Sequence record: OK272482.1 | DNA from: Escherichia phage JLBYU08 | Length of the DNA: 64,000 nucleotides | Reading direction: 5' to 3' (one strand) | Notes under the pieces: generated by a model | What the model was told of the DNA's origin: nothing | The model's input: the letters and a program-made list of their open reading frames with translations, nothing else | Database searches by the model: none | Shown: positions 5,727-62,247 of the stretch, piece by piece | How the letters are laid out: every line of letters begins with the position of its first letter | How positions within the stretch are numbered: position 1 is the stretch's first letter | Position numbers and translations under genes: made by a program

Positions 5727-5945
5727 AATGTTTTCCTCTCTTCTGGTTGTTGTGTGGGCACTTTTGCCCCTTCAAGATAAATGTTACCCCACCACCTGGC
5801 AGATGTCAACGGTTTTTATAGTTCTTATATGACAGGCAGGCCCGGTGATTGTCTCCCCCTGTTCCCAAGTGCCGCCCGTTTAATAAGAATAGCAAAAGGG
5901 GCCGAACAAGTCAACCCCCAAAATCAGTACCAAAACACTTTTTAT

Positions 5946-6257
5946 TTATACGGTCCGATCATTGGCCTTTGTCCAGGACCTGGCGATCCGTTTCCCGGTC
6001 ACCTGGAACGGAGACTGCATTGTGTGTAAGGAGTCCAGCGTAAGGGAGGACCGTTTACGGCGTATCTTCAGGATCGCTAACGTATTGTCCATCTCACGGC
6101 CAGGCCCTGGGCGGTATGGTGTGCCTCCAGCGTTAAGGTTGATGATCTCATGTATTGAGATCCGGCGTTGTTTTGCTTCCGCATCTTTGAAGATAGCCAG
6201 CGGAGGAGCTATGCGTTGCCGATACCAATCTAAAACGGTTGGCGTAATAGCGATCAT
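5946..6257 (-). CDS. hypothetical protein, 103 aa
   Basis: ORF; ATGA overlap with upstream gene. Confidence 0.45.
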   Translation of the reverse strand: MIAITPTVLDWYRQRIAPPLAIFKDAEAKQRRISIHEIINLNAGGTPYRPGPGREMDNTLAILKIRRKRSSLTLDSLHTMQSPFQVTGKRIARSWTKANDRTV

Positions 6258-6445
6258 ATTTTACCCCCTATGTAGTCCGGTCGGTTTTTCTCTGTCATGC
6301 GCTTAAGCAATTCTTGCATATGGCTGATAGCTTGTAGCGTGTCTTCTTCCAGGCTTGAATCTACATAATCAGGATCGTCTATGACCTTTCTATGATTATG
6401 ATAACGCAGTACCGCCAATACCTTTCTAACTTGTTCAGTATTCAT
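6254..6445 (-). CDS. hypothetical protein, 63 aa
   Basis: ORF coupled (ATGA) to downstream gene. Confidence 0.5.
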   Translation of the reverse strand: MNTEQVRKVLAVLRYHNHRKVIDDPDYVDSSLEEDTLQAISHMQELLKRMTEKNRPDYIGGKI

Positions 6446-6461
6446 TTTACATCTCCCTTAC

Positions 6462-6752
6462 TTATTGTTGGCGGTTTACGTAAGCTTTACCGTTTACGGT
6501 GATGGGCAGATCTTCCAGGTCTGGATCTTCCTTAAGGTCGCGAGCAAGCTCACCGCACCGGATACCCTCAAATCCGTAGTACTCTGTTGTACCGTCATTA
6601 AAAGTTTTAGTGGCAAGGCATAAGCGATAAGTAACCCCGATTCGATTGACGGCATGAATATCCGTTAGATTAACCTCTTTTGCCAGCTCATTAGCCATTG
6701 CAGGCGCACTAAGTCCAACAACCAGGGCAACCACTGCGATCATCTTTTTCAT
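6462..6752 (-). CDS. secreted or periplasmic protein, 96 aa, N-terminal signal peptide
   Basis: MKKMIAVVALVVGLSAPAMA signal-like N-terminus; AAGAGGA SD. Confidence 0.65.
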   Translation of the reverse strand: MKKMIAVVALVVGLSAPAMANELAKEVNLTDIHAVNRIGVTYRLCLATKTFNDGTTEYYGFEGIRCGELARDLKEDPDLEDLPITVNGKAYVNRQQ

Positions 6753-6843
6753 TGTGTCTATCCTCTTTCTGCTACGTTTAAGGCGGCGGTAACCGCCTGT
6801 TTATGCTTTGTTGGTTAATTTTCGGGTATCGGTATAAATTAAA

Positions 6844-7059
6844 CTATGCTGTACGCTCAACTATAACAACGGTTTGGGGGATCTCCCCTTCCACCACTAG
6901 TAAGGCCTTTTTCTGCGTGATAGATATCTTTACCCGTTGCAGCGTGGCGGTGAAGTCTTTCATTTCGTCACGCGGTGTTTTAGTGCAGTACCAGATCTCA
7001 GGCTTGCCGATCTGTAAGTTGCGTAAAAATTCTGTTTTGCCTGTTTTGTTAGTGATCAT
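6844..7059 (-). CDS. hypothetical protein, 71 aa
   Basis: ORF with GGTGAGG SD. Confidence 0.5.
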   Translation of the reverse strand: MITNKTGKTEFLRNLQIGKPEIWYCTKTPRDEMKDFTATLQRVKISITQKKALLVVEGEIPQTVVIVERTA

Positions 7060-38503: not shown

Positions 38504-39688
38504 TTAAGCTTTAGCCAAAATGGCGCTAAACTCTTCACCAAACTCTTTTACAATCTTCATCAGGTTTGGGTATGCTTTGATCAGCTGAGCAACAATCTTG
38601 TCACGCCCTTTACCGATAAGCAAGGCATTTCCTAAGGCATTAGGTTTCATCATCGCCATAAAGACTGAGAATACAAAATCTCGGTTCTCGTCCTTGAAGT
38701 TTTCCCAAAGGAAATCGAGGAAGTTTGCCACGCAGCTGACAAGATCTTCGTCTGAGATACTTGCATTTTCCATCATATTACGAATAGCGATACAACCTTC
38801 AGATCCAAGAATCCACAAAATGTCTGGCTGCTTAGGACCTACGTATTCTTTGCAGCCACCTGCCATAATCCGACCGATTTCCGGTAAATTGCGTTTCTTG
38901 GTGTGGTATGTCCAGATCTCTACCGCTGCAGTGTGACCAATAGCACCTTGCAGAAGAACACGGGCCATAGCGTCAGAAATAATACCGCTGTCAAAATCGT
39001 GCAAGATGTCAGATGCAGCAACCCAAGATCGTGGTGTGGCAAAAGATGGACAATTAATCTCAGCCATAGCCTCATAATTATCAATAGCTGATGGAACTCT
39101 TTTCAGATACCCAATTACAGAGGAGTGAACCCCGTTGAGGAATGCGTAGTCCTCAATAAACACCTCTGCATTGCTTGTAACCTCTACAATGATAAAACGG
39201 TTAGCCAGAGGGGCTTCGAGCGCCGAAAGAACCGCACCATCTGTAGAACGGTTACCCGCAGCCACAAAAACAGAACCCTTAGGGAATGCATAGGTGCCGC
39301 ACTTGTGGTCAAGCATAATTTGCATTGCAACCTTTTGCAGGTAGTTATCTGCATGAGTGAGCTCATCCAGAAAGATAATTCCGCTCCAGTCAGGATCCGC
39401 AGGCCAAAATTCTGGAATTGCAAACACTGTACGTGTAGTTCCATCCGCTTCTACAGGGATAGGTAGCCCAGATAAGTCGGCAGGATCTTTATCTGACAGT
39501 CGCACGTCAACAAGGTTGTCATCTCGCTCACCGAACATATTATCAGCGATCTGCTTCATCACCTGGCTTTTACCCACACCCATTGGTCCCAAAATTAGGA
39601 CAGATCGGCTATGACGTTGGGCAAACTGAATAATAGCTGGCAACTCACGGACAGTGATTTGACCACTTTCGAATACGTTTCTTGACAT
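38504..39688 (-). CDS. MoxR-like AAA+ ATPase, 394 aa
   Basis: Walker A GPMGVGKS, Walker B IFLDEL, MoxR/AAA_5-like spacing; TAGAGGA SD. Confidence 0.8.
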   Translation of the reverse strand: MSRNVFESGQITVRELPAIIQFAQRHSRSVLILGPMGVGKSQVMKQIADNMFGERDDNLVDVRLSDKDPADLSGLPIPVEADGTTRTVFAIPEFWPADPDWSGIIFLDELTHADNYLQKVAMQIMLDHKCGTYAFPKGSVFVAAGNRSTDGAVLSALEAPLANRFIIVEVTSNAEVFIEDYAFLNGVHSSVIGYLKRVPSAIDNYEAMAEINCPSFATPRSWVAASDILHDFDSGIISDAMARVLLQGAIGHTAAVEIWTYHTKKRNLPEIGRIMAGGCKEYVGPKQPDILWILGSEGCIAIRNMMENASISDEDLVSCVANFLDFLWENFKDENRDFVFSVFMAMMKPNALGNALLIGKGRDKIVAQLIKAYPNLMKIVKEFGEEFSAILAKA

Positions 39689-43310: not shown

Positions 43311-43335
43311 AGGGGCCAATGGCCCCTTCTGGAGT
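43311..43335 (+). terminator. possible weak terminator hairpin
   Basis: GGGGCC-AAT-GGCCCC followed by TTCTGGAGTTTT; short loop and interrupted T-run. Confidence 0.35.
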
Positions 43336-43339
43336 TTTA

Positions 43340-44800
43340 ATGGATAGCAGAAGTTCAGAAATCATTGCCTCGCAGAAAGATGATGCCCTGAGAATGTTGC
43401 AGGCTGCACGTATGTATCTCCTTGAAAAGCTGCCGTTCTATGGCACACTACTGTCAGGGTTGCAGTTCGTAGAAAACCACACATGGTGCTCCACCATGGC
43501 AACCGACCATAAACGCATCTATTACAGTCCTGAGTTCATTATGGGATTGGCTGATGAACGCAAGGCTATTCTTAAGGCTTCTCTAACTGACGAGCAGTTT
43601 GAGATGGCTGAAGTTTTCTATTCCCCAAAATCTGTGAAAGAGGTGGCCTTCCTTCTGTCACATGAGGTGGGGCATATTATCTGTGATCACCTAGTCCGTG
43701 GTAAAAGCTTTGAGCCGGAACTGTTCAATATTGCTTGTGATCACGTTATCAACACAGGCCTTGTGGTTGACTTTAGCAAACCTCCTTGTGTTTTCTTCCC
43801 GAAGGGGAAAAGCACTACGTTCGTGAAAGGTAAGCCTTTTGGCTTCTTAGCCAGCTGCTACTGCGACATGAAGTTTCATGGATGGATTGCTGAGAACGTT
43901 TATGCAGTTCTTGATAAGCAAAGAGATCAGAATAACGGTAAAAGTAAGAACGGTAAAGGTGAGAACTCTCAAAGTGATAAGCGACAAACCGATGATCACA
44001 TGAGTGGGAACGGTGGCACCAGTGATAATCTTGGAAAGGCTATGGGGTATGATCAGCCACAACCTGTAATCAGCCAATCTGATAAAGATCAGGCCATGCA
44101 GGACTCTGGTGATATGCTGGAGGCAGCAATGCAAGCGTCCGGAGGCCGTTGCCCTGAGGCGGTGCGTGAGTTTGTCAAGAACAGAGGTAAACCTGTAATC
44201 AACTATATAGACATCATTAAGCAACGCATGTTGTCTAAAAGAAAGGCCGAACTGACCTACAGAAAACCTGGTCGCCGATCTGGGTCTTTGACCAGCACAA
44301 TGCGAAAAGTTGGGGCTATAAACAAGAACCAGCACGTTATTGTTCCTGGTCGTAATCCGGAAAACACTATAGATATTGTGGTGGCTTTAGACGTTTCTGG
44401 CTCGATCTCTCAAAGAACTTTAAAGAAAATGTTCAATGAAATCACCGGATTGTGCAATCTGTATAAAGAGTTTAAGGTTACAATGTTCTGTTGGTCAACT
44501 GAGGTTGGAGAGGTTAAAGTATACACTCGCGGCAACATAGACGAGATGATCAACTATGAGGTCCACTCAACATGGGGCACAACAGCTGCTTGCGTGTTCG
44601 AGCATCTGGATGCCAACATACCTAATGCAAAAGATGTCATCGTCCTGACCGACCTATACTTTGAGCATAACTTTGAACAAAAGGTTGTTGACAACAAGTG
44701 GAAAAAGTACGATACTCTATGGGTCCTCACTGAGGGGTATAATAAAAATTATATCCCGAGCTTTGGGAAAACTGTGGAATTAATCGAGTACGCTAAGTAA
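43340..44800 (+). CDS. putative metallopeptidase (HExxH) plus von Willebrand A domain protein, DUF2201-like, about 486 aa
   Basis: HEVGHIICDH zinc-binding motif in N-terminal half; MIDAS-like VALDVSGSIS in C-terminal half; GGAG SD before internal ATG. Confidence 0.7.
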   Translation: MDSRSSEIIASQKDDALRMLQAARMYLLEKLPFYGTLLSGLQFVENHTWCSTMATDHKRIYYSPEFIMGLADERKAILKASLTDEQFEMAEVFYSPKSVKEVAFLLSHEVGHIICDHLVRGKSFEPELFNIACDHVINTGLVVDFSKPPCVFFPKGKSTTFVKGKPFGFLASCYCDMKFHGWIAENVYAVLDKQRDQNNGKSKNGKGENSQSDKRQTDDHMSGNGGTSDNLGKAMGYDQPQPVISQSDKDQAMQDSGDMLEAAMQASGGRCPEAVREFVKNRGKPVINYIDIIKQRMLSKRKAELTYRKPGRRSGSLTSTMRKVGAINKNQHVIVPGRNPENTIDIVVALDVSGSISQRTLKKMFNEITGLCNLYKEFKVTMFCWSTEVGEVKVYTRGNIDEMINYEVHSTWGTTAACVFEHLDANIPNAKDVIVLTDLYFEHNFEQKVVDNKWKKYDTLWVLTEGYNKNYIPSFGKTVELIEYAK

Positions 44801-44815
44801 GAGAGGAGGTTATTT

Positions 44816-45079
44816 ATGGCAACAGAGTTAAAATTTGCATCAAACCGTAAAACTAAGAAGTATCTGTCCTCAGTAGCTCCAGGCACTGTGGTGATGTTTG
44901 TTGATGAACTTGGGGATGTGAATACAGCACTTGTTGTAAAATCACATCCTGCAAACATATATGTTGGGGTATTTGACCTGTTCAGAAAGGTGTTTGTAGA
45001 ACTACCTCACAGTTTGGTTGTTACAGAAATGGATGCCTGCATAGAAATTCTTGGCGAAGTTATGGTGGAGGAACAATAA
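44816..45079 (+). CDS. small protein, 87 aa; paralogue 1 of a four-gene tandem array
   Basis: Shared pattern MAT..kF.s..k.K.....GtVV...D.......mvvk...fdl...L...kVtE.d..I.iLGE; GAGGAGG SD. Confidence 0.6.
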   Translation: MATELKFASNRKTKKYLSSVAPGTVVMFVDELGDVNTALVVKSHPANIYVGVFDLFRKVFVELPHSLVVTEMDACIEILGEVMVEEQ

Positions 45080-45342
45080 TGGCTACCAGCATTGTATTCA
45101 ATTCTAAGGTGAAGAACAAAAAGCGTGCAGACAGCTTTCCGTGTGGGACCGTGGTAAGTTGCGACGGAGACGGCATTCAAAACATAGTTATGATTGTCAA
45201 AACAGGAGAACATTGTGTGTGGGGGTTCGATTTAGAAAATAATGAGTTGTACGATCTGCCACCAAACATGAAAGTTACAGAGCTTGACACCAAAATTACC
45301 ATCCTTGGAGAGACAAGCTATTCAAAAGAAGGAGGAGAATAA
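45079..45342 (+). CDS. small protein, 87 aa; paralogue 2
   Basis: TAATG coupling; same length and motif pattern. Confidence 0.6.
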   Translation: MATSIVFNSKVKNKKRADSFPCGTVVSCDGDGIQNIVMIVKTGEHCVWGFDLENNELYDLPPNMKVTELDTKITILGETSYSKEGGE

Positions 45343-45605
45343 TGACCACAAAAATCACTATCGCAGAACCGAAAGCTAACACTCAACCTATCGAAAAGTT
45401 TAAGTGCGGTGAGGTGGTAACATTCACACCAGATAATGAAGATGCTAAGATTTTCGCAATGGTCACAGCTGAGTGGATGTGTGACAACACCACACAGGTT
45501 CTGCGTTTTGACACCTATCTTACCGATGAAATCAGGAACGACAAGATTGTGACTGGTGTGGATACTGAGATTGTTTTCTACAAGAGCTTTTTAGAGGGTT
45601 TCTGA
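45342..45605 (+). CDS. small protein, 87 aa; paralogue 3
   Basis: TAATG coupling; same length and motif pattern. Confidence 0.6.
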   Translation: MTTKITIAEPKANTQPIEKFKCGEVVTFTPDNEDAKIFAMVTAEWMCDNTTQVLRFDTYLTDEIRNDKIVTGVDTEIVFYKSFLEGF

Positions 45606-49302: not shown

Positions 49303-49333
49303 AAAAAGAAAGGGGCCGTTTGGCCCCTTTTTA
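49303..49333. terminator. bidirectional rho-independent terminator between convergent blocks
   Basis: GGGGCC-GTTT-GGCCCC hairpin flanked by an A-run upstream and a T-run downstream. Confidence 0.75.
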
Positions 49334-49345: not shown

Positions 49346-52300
49346 TTAACGAGAAAAGGTTGCGTAGGCTTCTAGACGATACTGCTGGTCACCAGGGAAC
49401 ATAACACCTATAGAGGCTGTCCCTAGAATCCTGCCTTCCTTTCCAGACTCCATTCTGAACCCTACCCATCCTGAACTCCTTGCAGCCTCGATGTTGTCGC
49501 TATACCCGAAAGTGGCAAGATCGTCAACACCAGCCCCAAACAGCAACTGAAGCTGACTTCTCGGAAGACCTATAATTTCAGGAATATACGCACCAAAGTA
49601 CACCATCTGCCCTACCTTAGGACCGCTGCCGTACTCCATCGGTTTGCTTGTAGAGAAAGTCTTCATACCAGAAGTACCTGCCGGATTAGGGTATGCCCCG
49701 TTTGTTGCTGTACCTATCCACATTCTCCACTGTGGTGCCATCTGTTTGACAGTAAAAGATGTTGAAGACGTTTTGCGCCCTGCATCATCTGTAACTACAA
49801 ACTTTATGGTGACATTCCCAGTAGCTTTAAATGTTACCAGTCCTGTGGTGGCATCCACTGTTGCAATGTTGGTATTACTACTTTCCCAAGTCTTTCTAAT
49901 CCCGGATACGTTGGAAGGGGTAATAGAAGGTTCCTGCATCTGCAGTTTACCACCAACAATCCCTATGCCGTTGCCCGGATTATACAGCGCACCAACCTCG
50001 TCTATAATGTTCCCTGCTTTGAGACTATACTTCCTTGAGAAGTTGTAGGTTCCGTTATAAGTGTGTGTCCCTGAGAAGGTGACATCTGCCTTCCCGTAAG
50101 AGATGCAAACCAAAGCATACTTCCTGTCAGGCAACGTTGCTCCAGTCTCCGGGTGAGTTTTACCCACCTGAAACACACTCGGGTCAGTGGAGTCGTGGCT
50201 ATCACTAACGGAGCTTGGACCACCCATCAGTTGTGACAAGCAATTCCTTACCCATGTCCAGTTATTATCGCTGGAGAAGTCCACAGTCAAATCAAACACA
50301 ACCCACTCATTTGGCTTCCACACAGGTGTTGTAATGGACTTGCCTACACCACCTCCTTGGAGTGTTGCCGACTGTTCGGTGATCAGGGCCGCATAGGCCA
50401 GAGTTCCTAAACTCAGAGTCTGGCTTGCTGTCCTCACTACCTTAGAATCAGCATCTGTGAAGTTGTTGATGATTTGGAATGTGCCATAAGTGTTTTTACA
50501 GGTAATTCTGGCGTTCAGCGTGTCAATCTTCCTCACATCTGCCATAGCAGTGTTAGACACAGAGAAGTCAGAAGCTTTAGCTGAGTTTGCCGCAACAGCA
50601 GGATCAACGTTAAGAGTTGCGTTGAACTGACAGGCAGGGGTAACCAGCAGCTTGTTATCACCTATTTGCTTCCATGAAATACTTTGGACAGGTAGATTCC
50701 ATTTAATACCTGAGAAAACTTTAGCAACCCTTGGCCCCAAAGCTCCAGTCCTGTTGTCTTTACAGCACATAGACATGGTGATCGTTGACGGAGTTGCCTG
50801 ACCAAATAATTGCTGTGCTTTTGCAGAGGACATAGTGTAGAAATTGTCCTTAACAAACTCATCAGCGGCTAAAGATCCGTCAGCCCTCCACCATTGAACC
50901 TGATACCCTGTTTTGTCCCAACCACCGACCTGCTTCAGGTCTTCCCAGGAGATTTCCAGATCCCCAGTGGTAGGGTTGATTGCAGCAGTTCCCGGTGTTC
51001 CTGGTGACCACAATGGAATATCGAACCACGCTGGTTTAACCGACTGCACTGCGCTGGGACCTATTGCGGCAGCAAGTTGCTGGCCCATCAATACGCGAGC
51101 ATCTTTCACCAGACCCCACTCGATCATAGACCCAGAGTAACCTTCTTTCTTGTAGGCTGAGGATCCGTTCAAATGGATGAGTCGGCTTGTGCCAAAGTTA
51201 TGTGCTCCACCACCGTTATCGTCTGCAAAATTGGTTATGATTCTATCCCTGATATTTTTCCATGCCCTGCCCCCAATCTCATAGTCATGGTCATAACATC
51301 TTTGCAGTGTTGTCCAGCAAATGATCGCCATCCTTCTACCATCGCTGAATCCAAAGGCCTGATCGTTAAGCTCTCTCCACAAGTAGCAGTTAGTGGTCCA
51401 CATGGCCCTATGAATGTTAAACCAGTTTATAGATTTGGCTGAGTTGTCCCACTGAGTCCCAGGTAATTCAGGCCATACTGCATTAACCAGCATGTCTTCT
51501 GTTCCTGCATCAACCAAGAACCCTCTTACCTTCTTACCCATGCCTACCCTATCTTTTGCAATCCAGCTGCCAAACAATCTCAGTTTTGGACCGTAGACAA
51601 CATCTTCCGGATGCTCAAAAGAAACATATTTTAGGTATATTGTAGGGTCACCATAGGTGCCATCACAAACAGCTTTGTGCATGTTCTCGCCAAGGTCTAG
51701 ACGAAGTCCTGTTACAACTTTAGACGTGTCGGTGAATTTGTCTGTTAAATCAAACTCATACCACCACCAACCTGCACCCAACAATACTTTCTTACAACGC
51801 TGTGCGTCTGTATCAGATATTCTCTTATCCCCTGCAAAAGGTGAGTCAGCAAACTGATAGTGCAGAGCGATCTCAAAAGGATGTGTGGATGTCCCGTTTT
51901 CTGCAAGAACTTGTTTACCTATCAGGTCGCACTTAATGATCATCACAACACGTTTGTATCCGTTTGTTACCGGAATTTGCATGGACATGGGTGTCCCATC
52001 CATGTTTGATCTCAGTGCAGTCATGATGATATAAGGGTCAACTGCATTGCCCAAAGTCTCAGGACCGGGGATTATCTTATACTTCTTGACCTGCCCCATG
52101 ATGTAGTCACTTGCGTAAGTTGCCTCATTCAAGCAAGATCCCCCACCAGGTAACTCACCAGGTCCCCAGAAAAATGCGCCGTAACAGTTGTAGAACCACT
52201 TGTTAGGATCGTATTTATTCTTGAAGGTCTGAACCTCGTTGGCCTGTTTTGTCAAGAAAACCTGCGTGTCTGTGAAGATTGCAGGGTTTACTCTCGCCTG

Positions 52301-54982
52301 TCTTGGAGGGTAACCTGTAGTTTGGTTAAACCACAAATTACAAGAGTAATCCCTCATATAGTCATAATCAGAGTATTTGTTTACATCTTCGTTCCAACAC
52401 ATGTTTAGGTTGGTACCGCCCATGCATACAATATATTCTGCGACATACTTATCACTTCTGGTAGGAATACCTATGAACCATCTGTTAACAGGCTCATCCC
52501 AAGCTGTGCGCTCATCTTTAACGCAGATAGCAATCCAGTCATGTGTTCCTGTTTTCTTGCACACATCTCGCTTCATACCATAGTAGAACTCTTTAGTATT
52601 CGGCTCAGGTGCATTTATCAGGTAACTCCATGCCTGATTTGCATAAGTTCCATTGGTGCGAGGATCATGGTCAAAGGCATACATGATGATCCTTTCTCCA
52701 CCAAGATGTTCACCGAGGGTAACTTTGATGTTTACATCACCGTAACCGTTACGAACTATATCCATATTGTCAATAGAGATGCCTCTAGGGGTGTAGGCAA
52801 TTTTCAGAGAACTATCTTCACTGGTACCACCCAGAGTAATACCTATATTGTTTGTTGTTCCATCAACATATTTTACTGTAGCTTCCCAACGTATCCCGAA
52901 ATACCCTGCGTTGTGGCTAACAACTTTCAGTGTGCGAGCACCTGGGTGAGGCTTACCAGGATCAGGCCATGGATCAGCATGCTCGTGCACTGTTAACGAT
53001 GTTCCGTTCTGCTCGTTAACCTGCAGCATCTTCCCGCCTTTGCCGTTAGGGTTGAACTCCCACAAGGCTTGTGTTTTCACAATATTGTCATACGTGGCGC
53101 GTCTTTGATCGTAGATCTCTTGGGTCACATCATAAGTGACTGATCCAGCATCCATTCTGTGGAGTCTGACCATATACGATGTATCCCCTTCTACTGCAGG
53201 CTGGGTCCCATTCAGCCCAAAGTATACAGTATCGTTAACATGGAACTGCTTGTTTCTACCAACGGTATGCCACTTGCCGTTGGACGGATACGCAGGAACT
53301 ATGGTGTTCCAGTTCAAAGTCCTTGTCGTGTGAGTTCTGCCTGTGCCATGCTTGTCATGATAGGTTATTTTTACAGAGTACAGGCCACGTCTGTTAACAT
53401 TTCTGTTATACTGGGTAACAACAACTTCGTTGGCCCCGCCGTGGTTCCAGTTGGTGGAGAATTGGTAATTTGCATCTGTAACAACCGTACCTGCAGCATT
53501 CACCAGTTCAATCTTGTCAATGATGAACGTAGCTCCCTCTGGCTGAGGCTTCAATTTCATCTTGACCGTGTCACCAATGTAGATATTGCTAACACTGCTA
53601 ACACCATTAACGTCGAAAATATCATCAACGCCCCAACTGTCTACTGGGACATTTTTATACCAATTCTCAGGAACCTCTGTGAACCCCTGACTATTAAGTC
53701 TGCCGCCAAACAGGTTATTAGAGCCTGTAAAACTTCCCCTTGGGATACCTGACCACCAAAGTTTACCATTAACAACAGTAAAGGTCCCTAAGAAACCTTC
53801 TCTGTGGATGCCTTGGAAATAAACACTCTCTGTCCAGCTGACTGGCAGGCGTTGCTCAACATATTTAGCTGTAGCAAGAGCTTGATAGTGGATAAAATCG
53901 GCCCTAGGACTATTGTTTGCAGATTGTGCACCAATATCATTACATAAGTTGCGAGAGAACCCACGATACTGCTTAGTGCCATTATTGAAGAAAATGCCAC
54001 TTGTGCCGTACCCACGAGCCATCATTACCTCATGGGTGTAGGTGATATTCAGTTCCCGCCATGTATCATCTCCCCAAATGTTTTGACCATAAAATACGTT
54101 AACAAGCTGCTGGTCATCGGGTCTATGCATCCTCTGTGTAGCAATTACTGCCCCGTTAGGACCACACATAAACCCTTTCCACTCCTCATCTGCAGGAATG
54201 CCCCTCAAATCGTTACGAGTAATCTGCACAGGAGGCCAAACAAGGTCGTTTCTACTGTTATTTCTCAGAAAGTCGTATCCAGCAATCCAGAAACCCCTAG
54301 GACCACCGAAAATAACAGAGTTGTCATGCACCTCACAGTTGATGCTTGGGTTTTTCCAAGGGCCTGTTTCAGGATTTTCCGATGTCTCACCAATCTTTAC
54401 AGGGGTTGCATGCTGATTTTTATCTACATGCAAAGATCCGTAGGTGTTGTTACCAGATCCATACAGGTTAAGTATGCCAGTACCTTCTGCCTCTGCAATA
54501 ACCCAGACAGTGTTGTTAATACCGCCCATCACCTCAATAAGGCGTTCTGGGTGGGTGTCAAGGTGCAATCCTTTAACAATCTGCTCTGGGAGTGGTGTCC
54601 ACTCGTTTACGCAAACATCATTACCGCCTGCCGCAGTGGATCCGATAAGACCTGCAGTGCAGCCGATGTAGAAAAACTGGTTATCAAAAGTCCGGATCAC
54701 AAACGCGCGGTCTGCTCTCCACACATGATCAACATTCCAGGCTGTTTCGCTCGGATAGTTTATAGGGCTACGATCCCCAGTGCGGCACTCTCCGAACTTG
54801 TTATAGCCAGTAATATTAAGCTGACCATCATCAAAAAGTATAGCTAAGCTATTTACATAGGATACTGTGTTGCTTGTACCATCACTGTTGTCTATTGGGT
54901 ATGACAGAACAGCAAGTTCCTTAATTCCACCCCTCTTATCGAGGAAATGACGACCAAGTTTTAGCAAAGGGATTGGAAGCAT
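49346..54982 (-). CDS. large tail fibre or adhesin-like structural protein, 1878 aa, with an Ig-like (Big_2-like) segment
   Basis: Single uninterrupted 5.6-kb ORF in the tail module; Gly/Asn/Thr-rich beta-type composition; Ig-like stretch near C-terminus. Confidence 0.75.
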   Translation of the reverse strand: MLPIPLLKLGRHFLDKRGGIKELAVLSYPIDNSDGTSNTVSYVNSLAILFDDGQLNITGYNKFGECRTGDRSPINYPSETAWNVDHVWRADRAFVIRTFDNQFFYIGCTAGLIGSTAAGGNDVCVNEWTPLPEQIVKGLHLDTHPERLIEVMGGINNTVWVIAEAEGTGILNLYGSGNNTYGSLHVDKNQHATPVKIGETSENPETGPWKNPSINCEVHDNSVIFGGPRGFWIAGYDFLRNNSRNDLVWPPVQITRNDLRGIPADEEWKGFMCGPNGAVIATQRMHRPDDQQLVNVFYGQNIWGDDTWRELNITYTHEVMMARGYGTSGIFFNNGTKQYRGFSRNLCNDIGAQSANNSPRADFIHYQALATAKYVEQRLPVSWTESVYFQGIHREGFLGTFTVVNGKLWWSGIPRGSFTGSNNLFGGRLNSQGFTEVPENWYKNVPVDSWGVDDIFDVNGVSSVSNIYIGDTVKMKLKPQPEGATFIIDKIELVNAAGTVVTDANYQFSTNWNHGGANEVVVTQYNRNVNRRGLYSVKITYHDKHGTGRTHTTRTLNWNTIVPAYPSNGKWHTVGRNKQFHVNDTVYFGLNGTQPAVEGDTSYMVRLHRMDAGSVTYDVTQEIYDQRRATYDNIVKTQALWEFNPNGKGGKMLQVNEQNGTSLTVHEHADPWPDPGKPHPGARTLKVVSHNAGYFGIRWEATVKYVDGTTNNIGITLGGTSEDSSLKIAYTPRGISIDNMDIVRNGYGDVNIKVTLGEHLGGERIIMYAFDHDPRTNGTYANQAWSYLINAPEPNTKEFYYGMKRDVCKKTGTHDWIAICVKDERTAWDEPVNRWFIGIPTRSDKYVAEYIVCMGGTNLNMCWNEDVNKYSDYDYMRDYSCNLWFNQTTGYPPRQARVNPAIFTDTQVFLTKQANEVQTFKNKYDPNKWFYNCYGAFFWGPGELPGGGSCLNEATYASDYIMGQVKKYKIIPGPETLGNAVDPYIIMTALRSNMDGTPMSMQIPVTNGYKRVVMIIKCDLIGKQVLAENGTSTHPFEIALHYQFADSPFAGDKRISDTDAQRCKKVLLGAGWWWYEFDLTDKFTDTSKVVTGLRLDLGENMHKAVCDGTYGDPTIYLKYVSFEHPEDVVYGPKLRLFGSWIAKDRVGMGKKVRGFLVDAGTEDMLVNAVWPELPGTQWDNSAKSINWFNIHRAMWTTNCYLWRELNDQAFGFSDGRRMAIICWTTLQRCYDHDYEIGGRAWKNIRDRIITNFADDNGGGAHNFGTSRLIHLNGSSAYKKEGYSGSMIEWGLVKDARVLMGQQLAAAIGPSAVQSVKPAWFDIPLWSPGTPGTAAINPTTGDLEISWEDLKQVGGWDKTGYQVQWWRADGSLAADEFVKDNFYTMSSAKAQQLFGQATPSTITMSMCCKDNRTGALGPRVAKVFSGIKWNLPVQSISWKQIGDNKLLVTPACQFNATLNVDPAVAANSAKASDFSVSNTAMADVRKIDTLNARITCKNTYGTFQIINNFTDADSKVVRTASQTLSLGTLAYAALITEQSATLQGGGVGKSITTPVWKPNEWVVFDLTVDFSSDNNWTWVRNCLSQLMGGPSSVSDSHDSTDPSVFQVGKTHPETGATLPDRKYALVCISYGKADVTFSGTHTYNGTYNFSRKYSLKAGNIIDEVGALYNPGNGIGIVGGKLQMQEPSITPSNVSGIRKTWESSNTNIATVDATTGLVTFKATGNVTIKFVVTDDAGRKTSSTSFTVKQMAPQWRMWIGTATNGAYPNPAGTSGMKTFSTSKPMEYGSGPKVGQMVYFGAYIPEIIGLPRSQLQLLFGAGVDDLATFGYSDNIEAARSSGWVGFRMESGKEGRILGTASIGVMFPGDQQYRLEAYATFSR

Positions 54983-55030
54983 TGTGTTCTCCAGATAAGA
55001 AAACCGCCCCGTCAGGAGCGGTTAGATATA

Positions 55031-56776
55031 TTAACGTTGTGCAATTACTACGTCTACGATATCACCAACACCACAATACGTTAATTGCAGCAAGGTAACA
55101 CTGTTAGCCTTGTTGTTAATAACAGGTGTTGCCGACAGGATAGCATACTTATCGTGCAAAGTCACGTTGTGACCTACAGCATCCTGAATTACATAGATAA
55201 CCGCAGTGAATGGATAAGGTTTATCTTCCGCTGATGTCCCAGGCCACTGTCCTATTGTAAAATCCCCTTTCGCGTGAACAACATACATACTGGCCTGCCC
55301 GTTAGGTGTCCATGTCCCACTGGACGCGTCAACCTCCTCTAAATCAAAATCTACCTTTCCTGCGTGGAAAGTAGGGGCAGTAATGGTTTTACCCGCCTCA
55401 ATTTCTTGAGAGGTGGTTATCTTGCCACTGGAGTTAATGCCATTACAGACAAAGTTGACATTAGAGAAGTCAGGCAACCACCCAGTCACCGTGCCGGATA
55501 TTTCAAGGTTGTGAACAGAGGTGGTGCCAGTCCCTGCTGCGTTTAAACTGACATCTCCATTTACCTGCAAGTTGCGGGTAACGTTGCAGTTTTCAGAGTT
55601 TGCAGTTGTTGCAGTTAAAGTGGTTGTTGTCAGCTCGGTAATTACACCTTTGTTGGCTGTAAGCCCTTCTCCTTCAAAAGTTGCACGCTCATTGACTCTT
55701 AAGGTATTCAGAGCTATGTTTTGGATAGAGGCCGTACCTCGAATAACTACAGACCCGCCAACCTCCAAATCGCCATTTATCAATGCATCACCAGTGCTTT
55801 CAATATAGCTAGGGTAGATCATGGTGCCATCGACAGAGTATGTTATCCCTGTAACGGTACCTGTCACCTCAAGGTTCTTAACCCTGGTGGTCCCATCTAC
55901 CTGCAATGTCGGTTCGGTTGCTGCCTTCATGGCATTACCACGAATGTACACGTAGTCAAAAAAGTTATTACCCAGACCATCAAAATGCACATCGTTATTA
56001 TTAGCCACTGGTTTCCCAGAAGTTATAGTGTCAGCTATAACCCTGTGGGTGGACACTTCATGAGGTTGCAGCTCTGTACTTCTCCAGTCTGCATGCTTAG
56101 GATCGCTCCACGCAAAAGTAAGTGTAGAAGTATTTGCCGTGAGGATTAGATTCCTAAAGCGTGCAGTAGAATCTGCCCCATTAACAGGTCCATGTAAGGT
56201 AAGGGTGCCACCAACTATAGTGTTAGCGAGTTCTGTAAGACCTTTTACCACCAAAGACCCTACAGTAACTTTCATCCCCTCCATGGCTTTAAATATGCTA
56301 TCAACATAGTCAACAACAAACTCTGTGTTTGCTATGGACTCTGACTTATCGTCCATTGGAGGTGTAGGTACTCGTGGGTCACCTTCGAACCTCGGGCTGT
56401 TAAGTTTTGCGTAGTATTTTGCCATTACTGCAGAGTCGGTATATAATCTCCAGTTTGGAGATTGTGAAGGATCTGCTGGCATTCTAACCGGGTTAGATTT
56501 TGATGCTGCGGGAGCGTACCACCACTGAGGGCCTGTGTCCCCTTTAAACTCGTACAGCTGGTTAAAAACTGTTGTGGATGCACCATACGCCCAAGGGATC
56601 GGTGGCGTTTTAAAATAAAGGTTGTCAAGCATGGCTTTTCGTACCGTAGGGATGGTGGTCCCATCCTCTACGACAACTTCATCCACAGCGTTACCGTTGA
56701 CAACCAAGTGCAAACGTTCAGAATCAACAATTACTTGATCTACCGCCTGCTCAAAGCTTGTCATGTCTTGCGCCAT
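55031..56776 (-). CDS. tail fibre or tail spike-like protein, 581 aa
   Basis: Thr/Gly/Asn-rich repetitive beta-type composition; position in tail module. Confidence 0.6.
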   Translation of the reverse strand: MAQDMTSFEQAVDQVIVDSERLHLVVNGNAVDEVVVEDGTTIPTVRKAMLDNLYFKTPPIPWAYGASTTVFNQLYEFKGDTGPQWWYAPAASKSNPVRMPADPSQSPNWRLYTDSAVMAKYYAKLNSPRFEGDPRVPTPPMDDKSESIANTEFVVDYVDSIFKAMEGMKVTVGSLVVKGLTELANTIVGGTLTLHGPVNGADSTARFRNLILTANTSTLTFAWSDPKHADWRSTELQPHEVSTHRVIADTITSGKPVANNNDVHFDGLGNNFFDYVYIRGNAMKAATEPTLQVDGTTRVKNLEVTGTVTGITYSVDGTMIYPSYIESTGDALINGDLEVGGSVVIRGTASIQNIALNTLRVNERATFEGEGLTANKGVITELTTTTLTATTANSENCNVTRNLQVNGDVSLNAAGTGTTSVHNLEISGTVTGWLPDFSNVNFVCNGINSSGKITTSQEIEAGKTITAPTFHAGKVDFDLEEVDASSGTWTPNGQASMYVVHAKGDFTIGQWPGTSAEDKPYPFTAVIYVIQDAVGHNVTLHDKYAILSATPVINNKANSVTLLQLTYCGVGDIVDVVIAQR

Positions 56777-60174: not shown

Positions 60175-62247
60175 TTATGAGAAGTCTGGCGGGACAACAT
60201 CTTCTACATACCCTTTCAGAGCAACCTGCCCCATATGAAGCACGGTAGAATCTCTAGCGGTAACAGTGATGCTGTCAGACATTACTTGCGGGTATGCCCA
60301 CACATACTGTTTTACCTCAGGATATCTATACTCTATAGTTGCCATGTTTCCGCAAATACATCTCCATAAAAATTCTTGGTAATTCCTGGTTGGGTCGTAA
60401 CCATATACCGGAGCAAGCTCTTTACTAGGAACGAACCCTGCAAGGTATTGTATTTCAGACGGTTGCCAACCTAACTTAACGATAGGTATGTTTACAGACT
60501 CTTTTGCCTTTTCAATACCTCCCTGCATCACCCAATCGTAGCACTCGGTGCAGAAGAAATCAAGAGCACCTGCTTCCTTTTTATATTGGTCAGCAAGGTT
60601 AAGCTTTTGCGTAAGCTCGGTTTCCATAATGGTTGGGAAAAACAGCAGAGCTGTCATCTGAGCTGATGCAGCGTGTGCCTTTATTGCCTTTGAAATAGCC
60701 GCAATACGAGCGCCAAGCTTACCACGACAAAATGCTACATACTTATCGTAAACACCGCCAGTTTTAGGATCGTCAATAGTCCCAATATCTAATGCATACT
60801 CGCCTGTCTCATCATAAAACGCCTGTTTTGTAGGGTAATCATAAATACAAGGTCTACGAGTATCGGTATTGTACCACCACCACGGTTCACCAACCTGCAT
60901 AATCACTGGCAGGTTGTTTCTCATAGCGGCTGATGCAAAATTCTTAAATACTGCAGTAAGGAAATTCATACCCTCTTCAATGGTTGGAGACAGGAGGTAG
61001 CTACAAGGTGTATACCCTGTTTTAGCGTAGTTATCGTTCCAGTCTCTTTGGGTCCATTCCAACGGGCAGGCATCGCTGAAAAGCTCAAAACTTACAGATT
61101 GCATAACGTCGAAGTTATGTCGTTTGGCATTGTACATAAAATCATCATGCCATTTATAAGCTGCAGCGTTTAGCGCTCCTGTTCTGTTTATAGACCATTG
61201 GGTTCCTGACCATGTGTAGTCATAATAATGACTCATACCAACATAATGGTTTATGGTTCCGGTATAGCCCAGACGCTTGATATTGTTCAACACCCTTAAA
61301 GGAGACACGTTCCACATATCGTCATATGCGGTGCAGATCCCAACATCGTGCTCTCTCACCTGGATATTGTTAAGTTGCATCATTTTCCAGCCTGTGTCTG
61401 GCTGAAGCAGATCTAGGCGCAACTCACACTCTACATTTTCCGTTCTCGGGTCTGTGCTATTACTTACCCAGTCTTTAGGCATAAGCGGTATTAAAATCCT
61501 TCTCACCTGCCGAGGATCAACACCCATCATGTTGTTGTTCTGGTCCATCCCGACGCAGTCCTCAAAATCAATATGAATTTCTGCAACATTCTTATCCTCT
61601 GAGATGCTGACAGCATATTGAGCTAAAGGAACATAGATGATTGTGCCATCAACAAGGTCTACAGTCATAATCATCTTTTCAGGAGTGGAGAAGTTGCTGG
61701 CGTTGGTTATTGACATTCTGAACCAAAGCTTGGTGTTTCTCATCTCATAGTGATCATCAAACCCAATACCGAAATGGTCATACTTGTCAACTGTTTCCCA
61801 AATGCACCCAGCCATACCTCCATATGTTCTTGACACTAAACGGTTAATACAACAGTTGTTATCTGCAACAATACAGGTACTTTCAGTCTGCTGAGTGGTT
61901 GTAACCCAATATCTTGGGTGAAACATTCTCTCCTCAACAGTATCCCAAGATATCCTGTCAAGATTCTCATCTGAAACTATTGTACATTTCGCCCTTTGTG
62001 TTCCAATCATCACCCCTTGAGATTTTGATGAAAACTCCATAAAGAAGCTTCTTGGCAACCTGTTGGGTAATTTGTCAACAATTTCCACGGGGATCTCAAT
62101 ACTGGTTGCCCCAACTGGGATAGTTACATCGCCCTCAACATGATCATAATCCCTACCAGGAACGGCAGTATCCTGAACTGTTCGGTAATGAAACCGTGCA
62201 GCCATTGTAGAGTAATCACGGTAAGGTTTAAAAACAGCTGTTGCCAT
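60175..62247 (-). CDS. tail or baseplate structural protein, 690 aa
   Basis: Large ORF in the tail module; TAATG-style coupling to upstream gene. Confidence 0.65.
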   Translation of the reverse strand: MATAVFKPYRDYSTMAARFHYRTVQDTAVPGRDYDHVEGDVTIPVGATSIEIPVEIVDKLPNRLPRSFFMEFSSKSQGVMIGTQRAKCTIVSDENLDRISWDTVEERMFHPRYWVTTTQQTESTCIVADNNCCINRLVSRTYGGMAGCIWETVDKYDHFGIGFDDHYEMRNTKLWFRMSITNASNFSTPEKMIMTVDLVDGTIIYVPLAQYAVSISEDKNVAEIHIDFEDCVGMDQNNNMMGVDPRQVRRILIPLMPKDWVSNSTDPRTENVECELRLDLLQPDTGWKMMQLNNIQVREHDVGICTAYDDMWNVSPLRVLNNIKRLGYTGTINHYVGMSHYYDYTWSGTQWSINRTGALNAAAYKWHDDFMYNAKRHNFDVMQSVSFELFSDACPLEWTQRDWNDNYAKTGYTPCSYLLSPTIEEGMNFLTAVFKNFASAAMRNNLPVIMQVGEPWWWYNTDTRRPCIYDYPTKQAFYDETGEYALDIGTIDDPKTGGVYDKYVAFCRGKLGARIAAISKAIKAHAASAQMTALLFFPTIMETELTQKLNLADQYKKEAGALDFFCTECYDWVMQGGIEKAKESVNIPIVKLGWQPSEIQYLAGFVPSKELAPVYGYDPTRNYQEFLWRCICGNMATIEYRYPEVKQYVWAYPQVMSDSITVTARDSTVLHMGQVALKGYVEDVVPPDFS

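What the first reader, a model, noticed from the sequence alone, without database searches (positions are those of the whole stretch)
49346..54982. Very large 1878-aa fibre or adhesin-like protein
A single 5.6-kb ORF with Gly/Asn/Thr-rich beta-type composition and an Ig-like stretch near the C-terminus forms the distal end of the tail module. It may be a long fibre carrying carbohydrate-binding or depolymerase domains.
Basis: inference. Interest (0 to 1): 0.4.

Follow-up and report, generated by a model that had tools for sequence, protein, structure and literature searches.

The report
Giant accessory tail adhesin of rV5-like phage
The 1878-residue ORF is real and is the known but uncharacterised gp27 of rV5-like E. 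coli phages; it looks like a many-domain, bead-like accessory adhesin that probably hangs on the tip of a lateral tail fibre, not a classical fibre or depolymerase.

Summary
The ORF (49346-54982, minus strand, 1878 aa) is confirmed. The window is a Vequintavirus (rV5-like E. coli myophage). The protein is the ortholog of rV5 gp27, of PHROG 15684 and of BASEL bas48_0041/bas54_0041, annotated there as "lateral tail fiber protein with intimin domain". It is present in more than 100 GenBank phages and evolves under strong purifying selection (dN/dS 0.08).

It shows no fibre features: no coiled coil, no beta-helix, no chaperone domain. The parse is:
- an N-terminal M-x-P-I-P peptide;
- an RCC1-like beta-propeller (aa 1-441);
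- a string of beta-sandwich domains;
- a conserved unit (aa ~1150-1425) remotely homologous to the phi92 gp153 / N4 gp65 "tail carbohydrate esterase" module;
- a Big_2 Ig domain and a variable C-terminal end.

The upstream 581-aa gene is the ortholog of the solved, baseplate-bound phiTE fibre. Its C-terminal head and the MxPIP start of the following gene recur together in several related phage genera, which suggests a docking pair.

Published data show weak virion mass-spectrometry detection (rV5) and dispensability on E. coli K-12 (Bas54 transposon sequencing).

Verdict: a known gene and an ordinary kind of thing (accessory receptor-binding protein). Its architecture is under-described, and its position on the virion and its ligand are untested.

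The parts
49346..54982 (-). Whole ORF, 1878 aa; ortholog of rV5 gp27, PHROG 15684 and bas48_0041
   Evidence: (phrog_15684, 1-1878/1878, 4498 bits)
54962..54982 (-). N-terminal peptide MLPIPLL (M-x-P-I-P-[LIC]-[LF]). It is conserved at the start of the syntenic gene in Phapecoctavirus, Seunavirus, phi92 and Av-05. Proposed docking element (inference).
53648..54925 (-). RCC1-like beta-propeller (about aa 20-445); the most conserved part of the protein
   Evidence: Pfam WD40_RLD E=2e-4 (below the cut-off). phrog_4219 E=4e-7. hhalign 99.6% over aa 1-441 to the ESCO13 891-aa protein, which matches the RPGR/HERC2/UVR8 propellers at E=3e-6. Conservation profile.
52448..53638 (-). Beta-sandwich string (aa ~449-845); no homologs outside the family
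   Evidence: AF2 strands, pLDDT 60-84 for aa 449-565 and 735-845; phmmer against 1.84e9 representatives found only the protein's own family
52133..52447 (-). Conserved segment aa 846-950 with the invariant I-x-C-x-G-G-T-N motif; fold unresolved (low pLDDT)
51614..52132 (-). Jelly-roll/beta-sandwich domain aa 951-1123, apparently inserted between two conserved segments
   Evidence: AF2 pLDDT 65-86
50990..51535 (-). Esterase-like unit aa ~1150-1331 (invariant G-T-E-D at aa 1160), remotely homologous to the phi92 gp153 / Av-05 / N4 gp65 module
   Evidence: BLASTP E=1e-6. hhalign prob 90%, E=1.5e-6; 95% and E~5e-9 with insertion-removed constructs. gp153 against N4 gp65 (9lc0_I) E=1e-24.
50708..50986 (-). 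FN3-like beta-sandwich aa 1333-1425
   Evidence: weak matches to fn3-rich proteins P0020/P0021; AF2; part of the hhalign match
50015..50629 (-). Two beta-sandwich domains aa 1452-1656; this is where the part replaced in distant homologs begins
49784..49939 (-). Big_2 bacterial Ig-like domain (Pfam aa 1682-1733; AF2 domain 1673-1756, pLDDT ~90)
49349..49714 (-). Variable linker plus C-terminal domain (aa 1757-1878). It has the highest dN/dS in the protein, and two allele classes about 81% identical exist among Vequintaviruses.
   Evidence: the BFVD models of C-terminal fragments agree with this model (TM 0.77-0.87)
49309..49330 (-). Terminator-like hairpin after the stop codon (annotated as a bidirectional rho-independent terminator in rV5)
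55002..55023 (-). Terminator-like hairpin in the 48-nt gap upstream of the ORF; possible attenuator that sets a low copy number (inference)
   Evidence: phiTE has an annotated terminator at the analogous place
55031..56776 (-). Upstream 581-aa lateral tail fibre (rV5 gp28), proposed carrier of the 1878-aa protein
   Evidence: PDB 9cuy_g (phiTE tail fibre) E=3e-77. The C-terminal head (~105 aa) is shared with fibres of ESCO13, phi92 gp151, PVP-SE1 gp41 and phiTE_241.

Best explanation
The ORF encodes a low-copy, non-essential virion protein: a large, probably non-fibrous multi-domain adhesin that extends one of the lateral tail fibres of rV5-like phages.

Proposed mechanism, with each step marked as shown or inferred:
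1. The 581-aa gene just upstream makes a trimeric fibre anchored on the baseplate wedge. Shown by homology to the solved phiTE fibre.
2. The 1878-aa protein docks on that fibre's conserved C-terminal head through its conserved N-terminus, namely the MxPIP peptide plus the RCC1-like propeller. Inferred from the two elements recurring together in five related phage genera.
3. The remaining ~1400 residues form a flexible chain of beta-sandwich/Ig-like domains. This chain carries one N4-gp65-type esterase-like unit and a fast-evolving C-terminal tip, and it reaches out to bind a surface glycan or another polymer on some hosts. Inferred.
4. That binding gives reversible primary adsorption or a wider host range. 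It is not needed on E. coli K-12, where other fibres suffice. Dispensability is shown in a preprint for the 92%-identical ortholog.
5. The esterase-like unit has Thr in place of the putative nucleophile Ser and Glu in place of the putative His, so it more likely binds than cleaves. Inferred.
For: Identity and conservation:
- Nucleotide identity to Vequintavirus phages is 98.6%.
- The match to PHROG 15684 is full length.
- dN/dS is 0.08.

Position in the genome:
- It is the last gene of the tail-fibre block, and synteny is kept in relatives only 40-55% identical.

Virion association:
- rV5 gp27 gave 3 peptides and 9 spectra.
- RCC1-like proteins, and the gene that follows the fibre gene, are virion proteins in phage W70.

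Conservation gradient typical of receptor-binding proteins:
- In distant homologs identity is about 75% for aa 1-450, 30-70% for aa 450-1430 and 15-35% for aa 1450-1878.
- dN/dS peaks at 0.44 at aa 1741-1794.

N-terminus:
- hhalign gives 99.6% to the ESCO13 RCC1 propeller.
- The MxPIP motif is shared by gp27, ESCO13 891 aa, PVP-SE1 gp40, phi92 gp152 and Av-05_106.

Upstream fibre:
- It matches phiTE 9cuy_g at E=3e-77.
- Only its C-terminal head is shared across these genera.

Dispensability:
- bas54_0041 tolerates transposon insertions, while bas54_0040 is not on the dispensable list.

Esterase-like unit.

No fibre folds found.
Against: - The location on the virion has never been shown.
- I could not verify that the cryo-EM fibre class TC8 is the gp28 ortholog.
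- The rV5 mass-spectrometry evidence is thin: 3.1% coverage and partly non-tryptic peptides.
- Mydovirus and jumbo phages carry the same fibre head but have no MxPIP gene after it, so the head does not require a partner.
- phiTE_242, the gene at the analogous position, shows no detectable homology to this protein.
- Both AF2 models are of low confidence (pLDDT 51 and 54), so domain borders are approximate and the oligomeric state is unknown.
- The esterase link depends on an intermediate sequence. The match to the first half of the unit (block III, aa ~1150-1218) appears only with constructs I made by cutting out an insertion, whereas the aa 1219-1419 match holds on the unmodified alignment. 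Direct Pfam and PDB profile searches found nothing.
Confidence: 0.55

Rival explanations
1. It is a classical long trimeric tail fibre with a carbohydrate-degrading (depolymerase) domain, as the first reader proposed and as the BASEL name 'lateral tail fiber' implies.
For: It lies in the tail-fibre block and is annotated as a lateral tail fibre. Vequintavirinae are described as having three sets of lateral fibres with many glycan-active domains (PMC8594841).
Against: No coiled coil, beta-helix, collagen repeat or S74 chaperone was found. The N-terminal 441 aa form an RCC1-type propeller, a fold that is normally monomeric. The composition is globular and rich in Trp and Cys. No tail-fibre assembly gene follows it.
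Confidence: 0.1
2. It is an active carbohydrate esterase (deacetylase) carried on the tail. It would modify a host glycan such as ECA, O-antigen or an exopolysaccharide so that the phage can move toward the surface, as proposed for N4 gp65-type and G7C-type proteins.
For: aa ~1150-1425 are homologous to the phi92 gp153 / Av-05 unit. That unit matches N4 gp65 at E=1e-24, is named 'tail carbohydrate esterase' in some records and has a weak Pfam SASA match (E=0.008). The G-T-E-D and G-G-T-N motifs are invariant in the family.
Against: The position aligned with the His of gp153 (RIHY) is Glu (MIEW), and the candidate nucleophile is Thr rather than Ser. The SASA match of gp153 is itself below threshold. 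Pfam and PDB profile searches with the gp27 unit found nothing. The window already encodes a separate N4-gp65-like protein of 690 aa.
Confidence: 0.15
3. It is a decoration protein of the Hoc type: an Ig-domain protein on the head, neck or tail tube that mediates weak adherence to mucus or environmental polymers rather than recognition of a host receptor.
For: The C-terminal 290 aa match phrog_215, 'structural protein with Ig domain', which is filed under head and packaging. The Foldseek hits are Ig-decorated major tail and head proteins and S-layer or cadherin-like chains. The protein is dispensable in the laboratory.
Against: It is encoded at the end of the fibre block, not with the head genes. 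The N-terminal module is shared specifically with genes that follow the same fibre in other genera. Its low abundance in mass spectrometry is unlike that of a decoration protein.
Confidence: 0.12
4. It is not a virion component at all. It could be a protein released at lysis or acting on the infected cell's surface, with the mass-spectrometry peptides being carry-over.
For: Only 3 peptides were found in rV5. The gene is non-essential and is often split into several ORFs in deposited genomes. A terminator-like hairpin lies just upstream.
Against: There is no signal peptide or transmembrane segment at the N-terminus. It is co-oriented with and tightly linked to the fibre genes in all relatives. 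Strong purifying selection acts over all 1878 residues. Related proteins are virion-associated in W70.
Confidence: 0.06

Closest known systems
rV5 gp27 / PHROG 15684 / BASEL bas48_0041 and bas54_0041 ('lateral tail fiber protein with intimin domain')
   Same: This is the same gene. Amino-acid identity is 99.6% to phage pangalan, 93.9% to rV5 and 92.1% to Bas54. Length, synteny and downstream terminator are the same.
   Different: Nothing differs structurally. The existing annotations are 'hypothetical', 'Ig-like domain protein', 'cell wall surface anchor' and 'lateral tail fiber'. None of them describes the RCC1 propeller, the esterase-like unit or the link to the upstream fibre head.
Phapecoctavirus / Seunavirus / phi92 / Av-05 'tail protein' that follows the phiTE_241-type fibre (phrog_11922, phrog_32204: ESCO13 gp245 891 aa, PVP-SE1 gp40 604 aa, phi92 gp152+gp153, Av05_106 647 aa)
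   Same: It occupies the same position after the fibre and has the same MxPIP start. ESCO13 and PVP-SE1 share the RCC1 propeller (hhalign 99.6% and 97%). All carry Big_2 Ig domains. phi92 and Av-05 share the esterase-like unit.
   Different: The window protein is 2-3 times larger. It has ~700 extra residues of orphan beta-sandwich domains and an insertion inside the conserved region, and it combines modules that occur separately in the smaller relatives.
Phage N4 gp65 (non-contractile tail sheath / receptor-binding protein; PDB 9lc0, 9yf4)
   Same: It is a large protein built from about ten globular domains rather than a fibre (PMC13434306). One unit is shared through the intermediate phi92 gp153. 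Foldseek lists an N4 tail chain among the matches.
   Different: Sequence similarity is not detectable directly. gp65 wraps the tail tube of a podovirus and binds NfrA, whereas this protein belongs to a myovirus fibre block. The true gp65 homolog in the window is the separate 690-aa protein at 60175-62247.
T4 Hoc and other Ig-domain phage decoration proteins; intimin/invasin Big domains
   Same: It has one Big_2 domain, with E=0.003 to intimin domains.
   Different: Only about 4% of the protein is concerned. There is no capsid-binding module, no outer-membrane beta-barrel and no C-type lectin domain.

Membership tests
rV5 gp27 orthologous group (PHROG 15684) | Full-length collinear match to the family profile | tested here: met
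   phrog_15684 1-1878/1878, 4498 bits; 107 phage records cover at least 80% of the gene at 80-99% nucleotide identity
rV5 gp27 orthologous group (PHROG 15684) | Conserved position: last gene of the tail-fibre block, after the 581-aa fibre | tested here: met
Classical trimeric phage tail fibre / tailspike | Fibrous shaft: coiled coil, triple beta-helix, beta-spiral or collagen-like repeats | tested here: not met
   Pfam, PHROGs and PDB profile searches gave none. AF2 and Foldseek gave only chains of beta-sandwiches. The models are of low confidence, so this is not absolute.
Classical trimeric phage tail fibre / tailspike | Homotrimeric state | not testable with these tools
   No multimer prediction was available. 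An RCC1-type propeller at the N-terminus argues against it (established knowledge: RCC1-like propellers are single-chain folds).
Classical trimeric phage tail fibre / tailspike | Conserved N-terminal attachment region with a variable distal part | tested here: met
   Conservation gradient; N-terminus shared with syntenic genes of other genera; dN/dS peak near the C-terminus
Classical trimeric phage tail fibre / tailspike | Presence in purified virions | tested here: inconclusive
   Literature only: 3 peptides, 9 spectra and 3.1% coverage for rV5 gp27 (PMC3606486, Table S5)
Tailspike depolymerase (right-handed beta-helix or similar glycanase) | Beta-helix or glycoside hydrolase/lyase catalytic domain | tested here: not met
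   No such Pfam, PDB or Foldseek match
RCC1-like seven-bladed beta-propeller | Sequence match to RCC1-like repeat models | tested here: inconclusive
   Direct match: Pfam WD40_RLD E=2e-4 at 21 bits against a cut-off of 150; phrog_4219 E=4e-7
RCC1-like seven-bladed beta-propeller | Homology over the whole domain to a protein that matches solved RCC1-like propellers | tested here: met
   hhalign 99.6%, aa 1-441 against ESCO13 aa 2-407. ESCO13 matches RPGR, HERC2 and UVR8 at E=3e-6 to 1e-3 and Pfam WD40_RLD at 8e-11.
N4 gp65-type / SASA-like tail carbohydrate esterase unit | Homology to the unit | tested here: met
   hhalign prob 90% (E=1.5e-6) on unmodified alignments, and 95% with the insertion removed. 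The link to N4 gp65 runs through phi92 gp153 at E=1e-24.
N4 gp65-type / SASA-like tail carbohydrate esterase unit | Reaches the Pfam SASA/SGNH gathering score | tested here: not met
   No Pfam hit for gp27 even at E<=10. gp153 itself scores only E=0.008, below the cut-off.
N4 gp65-type / SASA-like tail carbohydrate esterase unit | Catalytic Ser (block I) and His (block V) conserved | tested here: not met
   The sequence shows G-G-T-N in place of G-x-S-x, and MIEW aligned with RIHY/WVHY. The alignment is remote, so the residue assignment is tentative.
Bacterial Ig-like (Big_2) domain-bearing phage structural proteins | Big_2 domain above the gathering score | tested here: met
   PF02368, 33.5 bits against a cut-off of 22.8, aa 1682-1733
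Intimin/invasin adhesins | Outer-membrane beta-barrel anchor plus C-terminal lectin-like domain | tested here: not met
   Only the Big domain matches (E=0.003). No other intimin or invasin Pfam domains were found.

The most novel reading that the evidence does not exclude
gp27-type proteins would define an undescribed class of monomeric 'tip adhesins' for myovirus lateral fibres. In this reading a short M-x-P-I-P N-terminal peptide, with or without an RCC1 propeller, plugs into the conserved C-terminal head of the phiTE_241-type trimeric fibre. That would explain the unassigned density seen on Bas49/Bas54 fibres. The peptide would then carry interchangeable glycan-binding cargo, including a catalytically dead esterase module reused as a lectin. 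The fibre-head/MxPIP pair would be a portable connector for engineering host range.
Probability: 0.3. Interest if true: 0.55.

Novelty: already known. Interest (0 to 1): 0.3.

Why it matters
rV5-like phages are among the E. coli phages most often isolated and are used in therapy cocktails because of their broad host range. Nobody yet knows which gene builds which part of their branched fibre apparatus.

Three results here make testable predictions about its largest protein:
- It is placed as a non-essential add-on at the tip of the baseplate-bound gp28 fibre.
- It is shown not to be fibre-like.
- A conserved connector is identified, made of the fibre head plus the MxPIP start.

These can be tested with knockouts and cryo-EM, and could serve modular engineering of receptor-binding proteins. 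In itself the finding is an ordinary, already deposited phage structural gene.

Tried and rejected
- Direct sequence searches of the full protein and of a 16-member family profile against PDB found only the Big_2 domain.
- phmmer of aa 441-1640 against 1.84 billion cluster representatives found no relatives outside the family, apart from weak FN3 hits. The central kilobase of protein is therefore an orphan.
- Word-based searches with the N-terminal and C-terminal thirds returned only fragments of the same family and two Big_2-rich proteins.
- AF2 in two halves, each with a 16-sequence alignment, gave low confidence (pLDDT 51 and 54). Foldseek against PDB and BFVD then gave only generic Ig, cadherin and S-layer chains. 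I did not use these models to assign folds to aa 216-434, 826-943 or 1125-1331.
- I tested whether aa 836-950 plus 1124-1335 are a recognisable SGNH/SASA esterase, using an insertion-removed construct. Pfam and PDB profile searches found nothing. Only hhalign against the gp153-type unit supports the link.
- I tested whether phiTE_242 / W70_106 (phrog_15692), the gene in the same position in Certrevirus and Septuagintavirus, is a homolog. There is no signal (hhalign 0.1%).
- I tested whether the fibre head is always followed by an MxPIP gene. It is not: Mydovirus and the jumbo phage phAPEC6 lack one.
- I could not establish which Bas54 gene is 'RBP65/TC8' in the RBPseg paper, because no supplement is held.
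- The phi92 paper (PMC3457257) is not held.
Full report
**1. Observation**

A GGAG ribosome-binding site lies 8 nt upstream. Composition is G 9.9%, T 8.1%, N 6.9% and W 3.0%. Pfam finds one domain above threshold, Big_2 at aa 1682-1733, which is the 'Ig-like stretch near the C-terminus'.

Upstream on the same strand lie, in order, Baseplate_J, a baseplate protein, an N4-gp65-like 690-aa protein, a short tail fibre, a Caudo_TAP chaperone, a second short tail fibre and a 581-aa fibre. Downstream there is a terminator-like hairpin at 49330-49309, and the following genes are on the other strand. The ORF therefore closes the tail module.

It is a real gene. Across nine Vequintavirus orthologs dS is 0.46, dN is 0.037 and dN/dS is 0.08. 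All 60-aa windows are below 0.15 except aa 1741-1794 (0.44) and the last 24 residues (0.26).

**2. Identity**

The window is an rV5-like E. coli myophage of the genus Vequintavirus. The gene is 98.6% identical in DNA to phages pangalan, nimi and CarlMeissner (Bas48), and 120 phage records match it.

The protein matches PHROG 15684 over its full length (1-1878/1878). It is rV5 gp27 (1878 aa, 208,334 Da; rV5 Table S3), bas48_0041 and bas54_0041 (92% identity). Deposited names vary: 'hypothetical protein', 'cell wall surface anchor' (rV5), 'Ig-like domain protein', 'structural protein with Ig domain' and 'lateral tail fiber protein with intimin domain'. The object is therefore already in the databases, but its function has not been characterised.

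**3. Published experimental evidence**

- *rV5 shotgun proteomics.* gp27 appears with 3 peptides, 9 spectra and 3.1% coverage (PMC3606486, Table S5). That is weak evidence for a low-copy virion protein.
- *HIDEN-SEQ preprint.* bas54_0041 is among the fibre genes that tolerate transposon insertions on E. coli K-12. The neighbouring bas54_0040 is not on that list. Some fibre genes become conditionally essential on clinical isolates, but the text does not say which.
- *Cryo-EM of Bas49 and Bas54.* Only three of the nine annotated fibres were found near the baseplate. [quoted passage not shown]
- *BASEL paper.* It states that it is unclear which genes build which fibre. It notes moderate allelic variation in a gene at the end of the locus, which by its position and size is probably this one (PMC8594841).

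**4. Architecture**

Homologs in 5.8 billion proteins number only 15 clusters. All are syntenic genes of rV5-like phages, and most share only the first 76% of the protein. phmmer with aa 441-1640 against 1.84 billion representatives found nothing outside the family except weak FN3 matches at aa ~1322-1382.

Identity to the distant homologs falls along the protein:

| Region (aa) | Identity in distant homologs |
|---|---|
| 1-450 | about 75% |
| 450-1430 | 30-70% |
| 1450-1878 | 15-35% |

AF2 on two halves was of low confidence (pLDDT 51 and 54). It gave consistent beta-sandwich domains at aa ~449-565, 735-845, 951-1123, 1333-1425, 1452-1570, 1591-1656 and 1673-1756 (Big_2, pLDDT ~90), and a C-terminal domain at 1793-1875. 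The C-terminal 300-400 residues agree with independent BFVD models of family fragments (TM 0.77-0.87).

Foldseek returns only chains of Ig, cadherin, FN3 and S-layer domains and Ig-decorated phage proteins. No search produced a coiled coil, a beta-helix, a collagen repeat, a tailspike catalytic fold or a C-terminal chaperone domain.

**5. N-terminal module**

Residues 1-197 are 41% identical to the start of an 891-aa 'tail protein' (phrog_11922) that occupies the same last position of the fibre block in Phapecoctavirus ESCO13. Profile comparison extends this to aa 1-441 against ESCO13 aa 2-407 (hhalign 99.6%, E=1.6e-24).

The ESCO13 domain is an RCC1-like propeller. It matches Pfam WD40_RLD at 8e-11, an RCC1 repeat, and the PDB propellers RPGR, HERC2 and UVR8 at 3e-6 to 1e-3. 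The window protein itself gives only sub-threshold direct hits: WD40_RLD at 2e-4 and phrog_4219 at 4e-7. I therefore call aa ~20-445 an RCC1-like beta-propeller by transitive homology.

RCC1-like proteins are virion components in another Vequintavirinae phage, W70 (PMC11370258).

**6. Upstream fibre and a recurring pair**

The 581-aa protein encoded just upstream matches the solved phiTE 'putative tail fiber protein' (9cuy_g, 793 aa) at E=3e-77 from end to end. Its beta-helical repeats and the description in the paper suggest it is the phiTE long tail fibre, whose N-terminal helical bundle binds the baseplate wedge and the sheath initiator (PMC11972413). I did not confirm which chain of the model corresponds to that fibre.

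Between rV5-like phages and ESCO13, phi92 (gp151), PVP-SE1 (gp41) and phiTE (gp241), the part of this fibre that stays conserved is the C-terminal ~105 residues. It is 51% identical to ESCO13, whose remaining sequence is unrelated.

In those same genera except phiTE, and also in Av-05, the gene that follows starts with the same peptide:

| Phage | Protein after the fibre | N-terminal sequence |
|---|---|---|
| This window (rV5-like) | 1878 aa | MLPIPLL |
| ESCO13 | 891 aa | MFPIPIF |
| PVP-SE1 | gp40 | MYPIPCL |
| phi92 | gp152 | MYPIPLF |
| Av-05 | 106 | MYPIPCF |

The peptide is present whether the next domain is an RCC1 propeller (window, ESCO13, PVP-SE1) or a Big_2 domain (phi92, Av-05). 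A conserved fibre end next to a conserved start of the following protein, with everything else swapped, is the usual signature of two parts that bind each other. This is an inference, not a demonstration.

The pair is not obligatory. Proteus phage Mydo and the jumbo phage phAPEC6 have the head but no such gene after it. phiTE_242 (phrog_15692, a virion protein in W70) sits in the same position but shows no detectable homology.

**7. Esterase-like unit**

A targeted comparison showed that aa 1218-1419 resemble phi92 gp153 (BLASTP E=1e-6). gp153 has the following properties:
- It is a 'tail protein' split from gp152 in phi92, but the two are fused in Av-05 (647 aa) and in phage alia (939 aa).
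- It carries a W-G-Q-G-E-N-D motif and a weak Pfam SASA match (E=0.008, below the cut-off).
- It is named 'tail carbohydrate esterase' in some records.
- It matches the solved N4 gp65 receptor-binding 'non-contractile sheath' at E=1e-24.

Profile-profile comparison of the gp27 family with a five-member alignment of such units gives 90% probability (E=1.5e-6) over 177 columns. When I remove the inserted beta-sandwich, the alignment extends over the whole unit (95%, E~5e-9). In that alignment the invariant K-V-R-G-F-L-V-D-A-G-T-E-D of gp27 falls on K-V-K-A-I-I-W-G-Q-G-E-N-D of gp153.

There are three caveats:
- Those constructs were made after seeing the similarity.
- Direct Pfam and PDB profile searches find nothing.
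- The residues aligned with the presumed nucleophile and base are Thr (G-G-T-N) and Glu (M-I-E-W) in every family member.

I conclude that the unit is homologous to the esterase-like module and that its activity is doubtful.

**8. Most likely mechanism**

The protein is a low-copy accessory adhesin. Its conserved N-terminus probably docks on the head of the baseplate-bound gp28 fibre. A long chain of beta-sandwich domains then presents an esterase-derived glycan-binding unit and a fast-evolving Ig-bearing tip to surface polymers of certain hosts.

It is dispensable on K-12, where the ECA-directed and LPS-core-directed fibres suffice (PMC8594841). That fits with the many deposited genomes in which the gene is split into 2-4 ORFs. 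A terminator-like hairpin in the 48-nt gap upstream (55023-55002) may keep its expression below that of the fibre; phiTE has an annotated terminator at the same place.

Shown here or in the literature: gene identity, selection, synteny, the module homologies and dispensability. Inferred: docking, location on the virion, ligand and non-catalytic binding.

**9. Comparison with known systems and novelty**

The protein works most like the modular, non-fibrous receptor-binding protein gp65 of N4, which has ten domains (PMC13434306), and like tip adhesins attached to a fibre. It is not a member of the classical trimeric fibre or tailspike families, because the fibrous-shaft and depolymerase features were tested and not met. 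It is also not an intimin, since only one Big domain is shared.

It is a member of the rV5 gp27 group and a larger relative of the phrog_11922/32204 'tail proteins'. Near-identical sequences with similar annotations are already public, so I rate it 'already known'. The domain parse and the fibre-head/MxPIP pairing are, as far as the papers I could read show, undescribed. They give the finding modest interest.

Noticed in passing
window 60175-62247 (-): A 690-aa protein carries Pfam NCTSP_N, TIM-barrel_NCTSP (E=4e-80) and Calx-beta. It is the window's true homolog of the N4 gp65 receptor-binding 'non-contractile sheath'. BASEL annotates it as a lateral fibre with glycosidase and deacetylase domains and links it to ECA recognition.
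   Followed up: partly
window 55002-55023 (-) and 49309-49330 (-): Two terminator-like hairpins flank the ORF. One sits in the 48-nt gap between the 581-aa fibre gene and the 1878-aa ORF and may act as an attenuator. The other follows the stop codon and is annotated as bidirectional in rV5. phiTE has an annotated terminator at the analogous upstream spot.
   Followed up: partly
window 55031-56776 (-): The 581-aa fibre is a clear homolog of the solved phiTE tail fibre (9cuy_g, E=3e-77). Its C-terminal ~105-aa head occurs in 385 phage records across Vequintavirinae, Stephanstirmvirinae and even jumbo phages (phAPEC6, Serratia BF), attached to otherwise unrelated fibres.
   Followed up: yes
window 44816-45605 (+): Three head-to-tail ORFs of exactly 87 aa each (44816-45079, 45079-45342, 45342-45605), annotated as hypothetical in Bas48. 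They look like a tandem triplication.
   Followed up: no
GenBank orthologs (hits H6, H9, H10, H15, H62, H63): In several deposited Vequintavirus genomes (naswa, Alma, ime, phita32, V18, APECc02) the gp27 ortholog is annotated as 2-4 separate ORFs. This reflects either sequencing frameshifts or real decay of a gene that is dispensable in the laboratory.
   Followed up: no
phage records MG0656xx: About 15-20 records named 'Campylobacter phage', with C. jejuni given as host, are more than 92% identical in DNA to E. coli rV5-like or phi92-like phages. The host labels look doubtful.
   Followed up: no
L012 (phi92) 5334-6996: phi92 gp152 (MYPIPLF start plus two Big_2 domains) and gp153 (esterase-like; 'no RBS, weak prodigal statistics') look like one gene split in two. 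The gene is intact in Av-05 (647 aa) and in phage alia (939 aa).
   Followed up: partly
L005 17189-18298 (-): A metagenomic rV5-like relative encodes a 369-aa protein with a YadA_anchor domain (trimeric autotransporter anchor) just downstream of the fibre block. This is unusual for a phage.
   Followed up: no
window 38504-39688 (-) and 43319-44800 (+): These are orthologs of the Bas48 MoxR-type ATPase and of the DUF2201 'putative metallopeptidase'. The HIDEN-SEQ preprint reports the Bas54 MoxR ATPase (bas54_0063) as an anti-defence gene against a predicted system, DS-28.
   Followed up: no
L013 (phiTE) 5306-6547: phiTE_242, the gene after the phiTE long tail fibre, belongs to phrog_15692. That is the same family as W70_106, which is a virion protein by mass spectrometry. 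It is a positional analogue of gp27 without detectable homology, and it is not assigned in the text of the phiTE cryo-EM paper that I read.
   Followed up: partly
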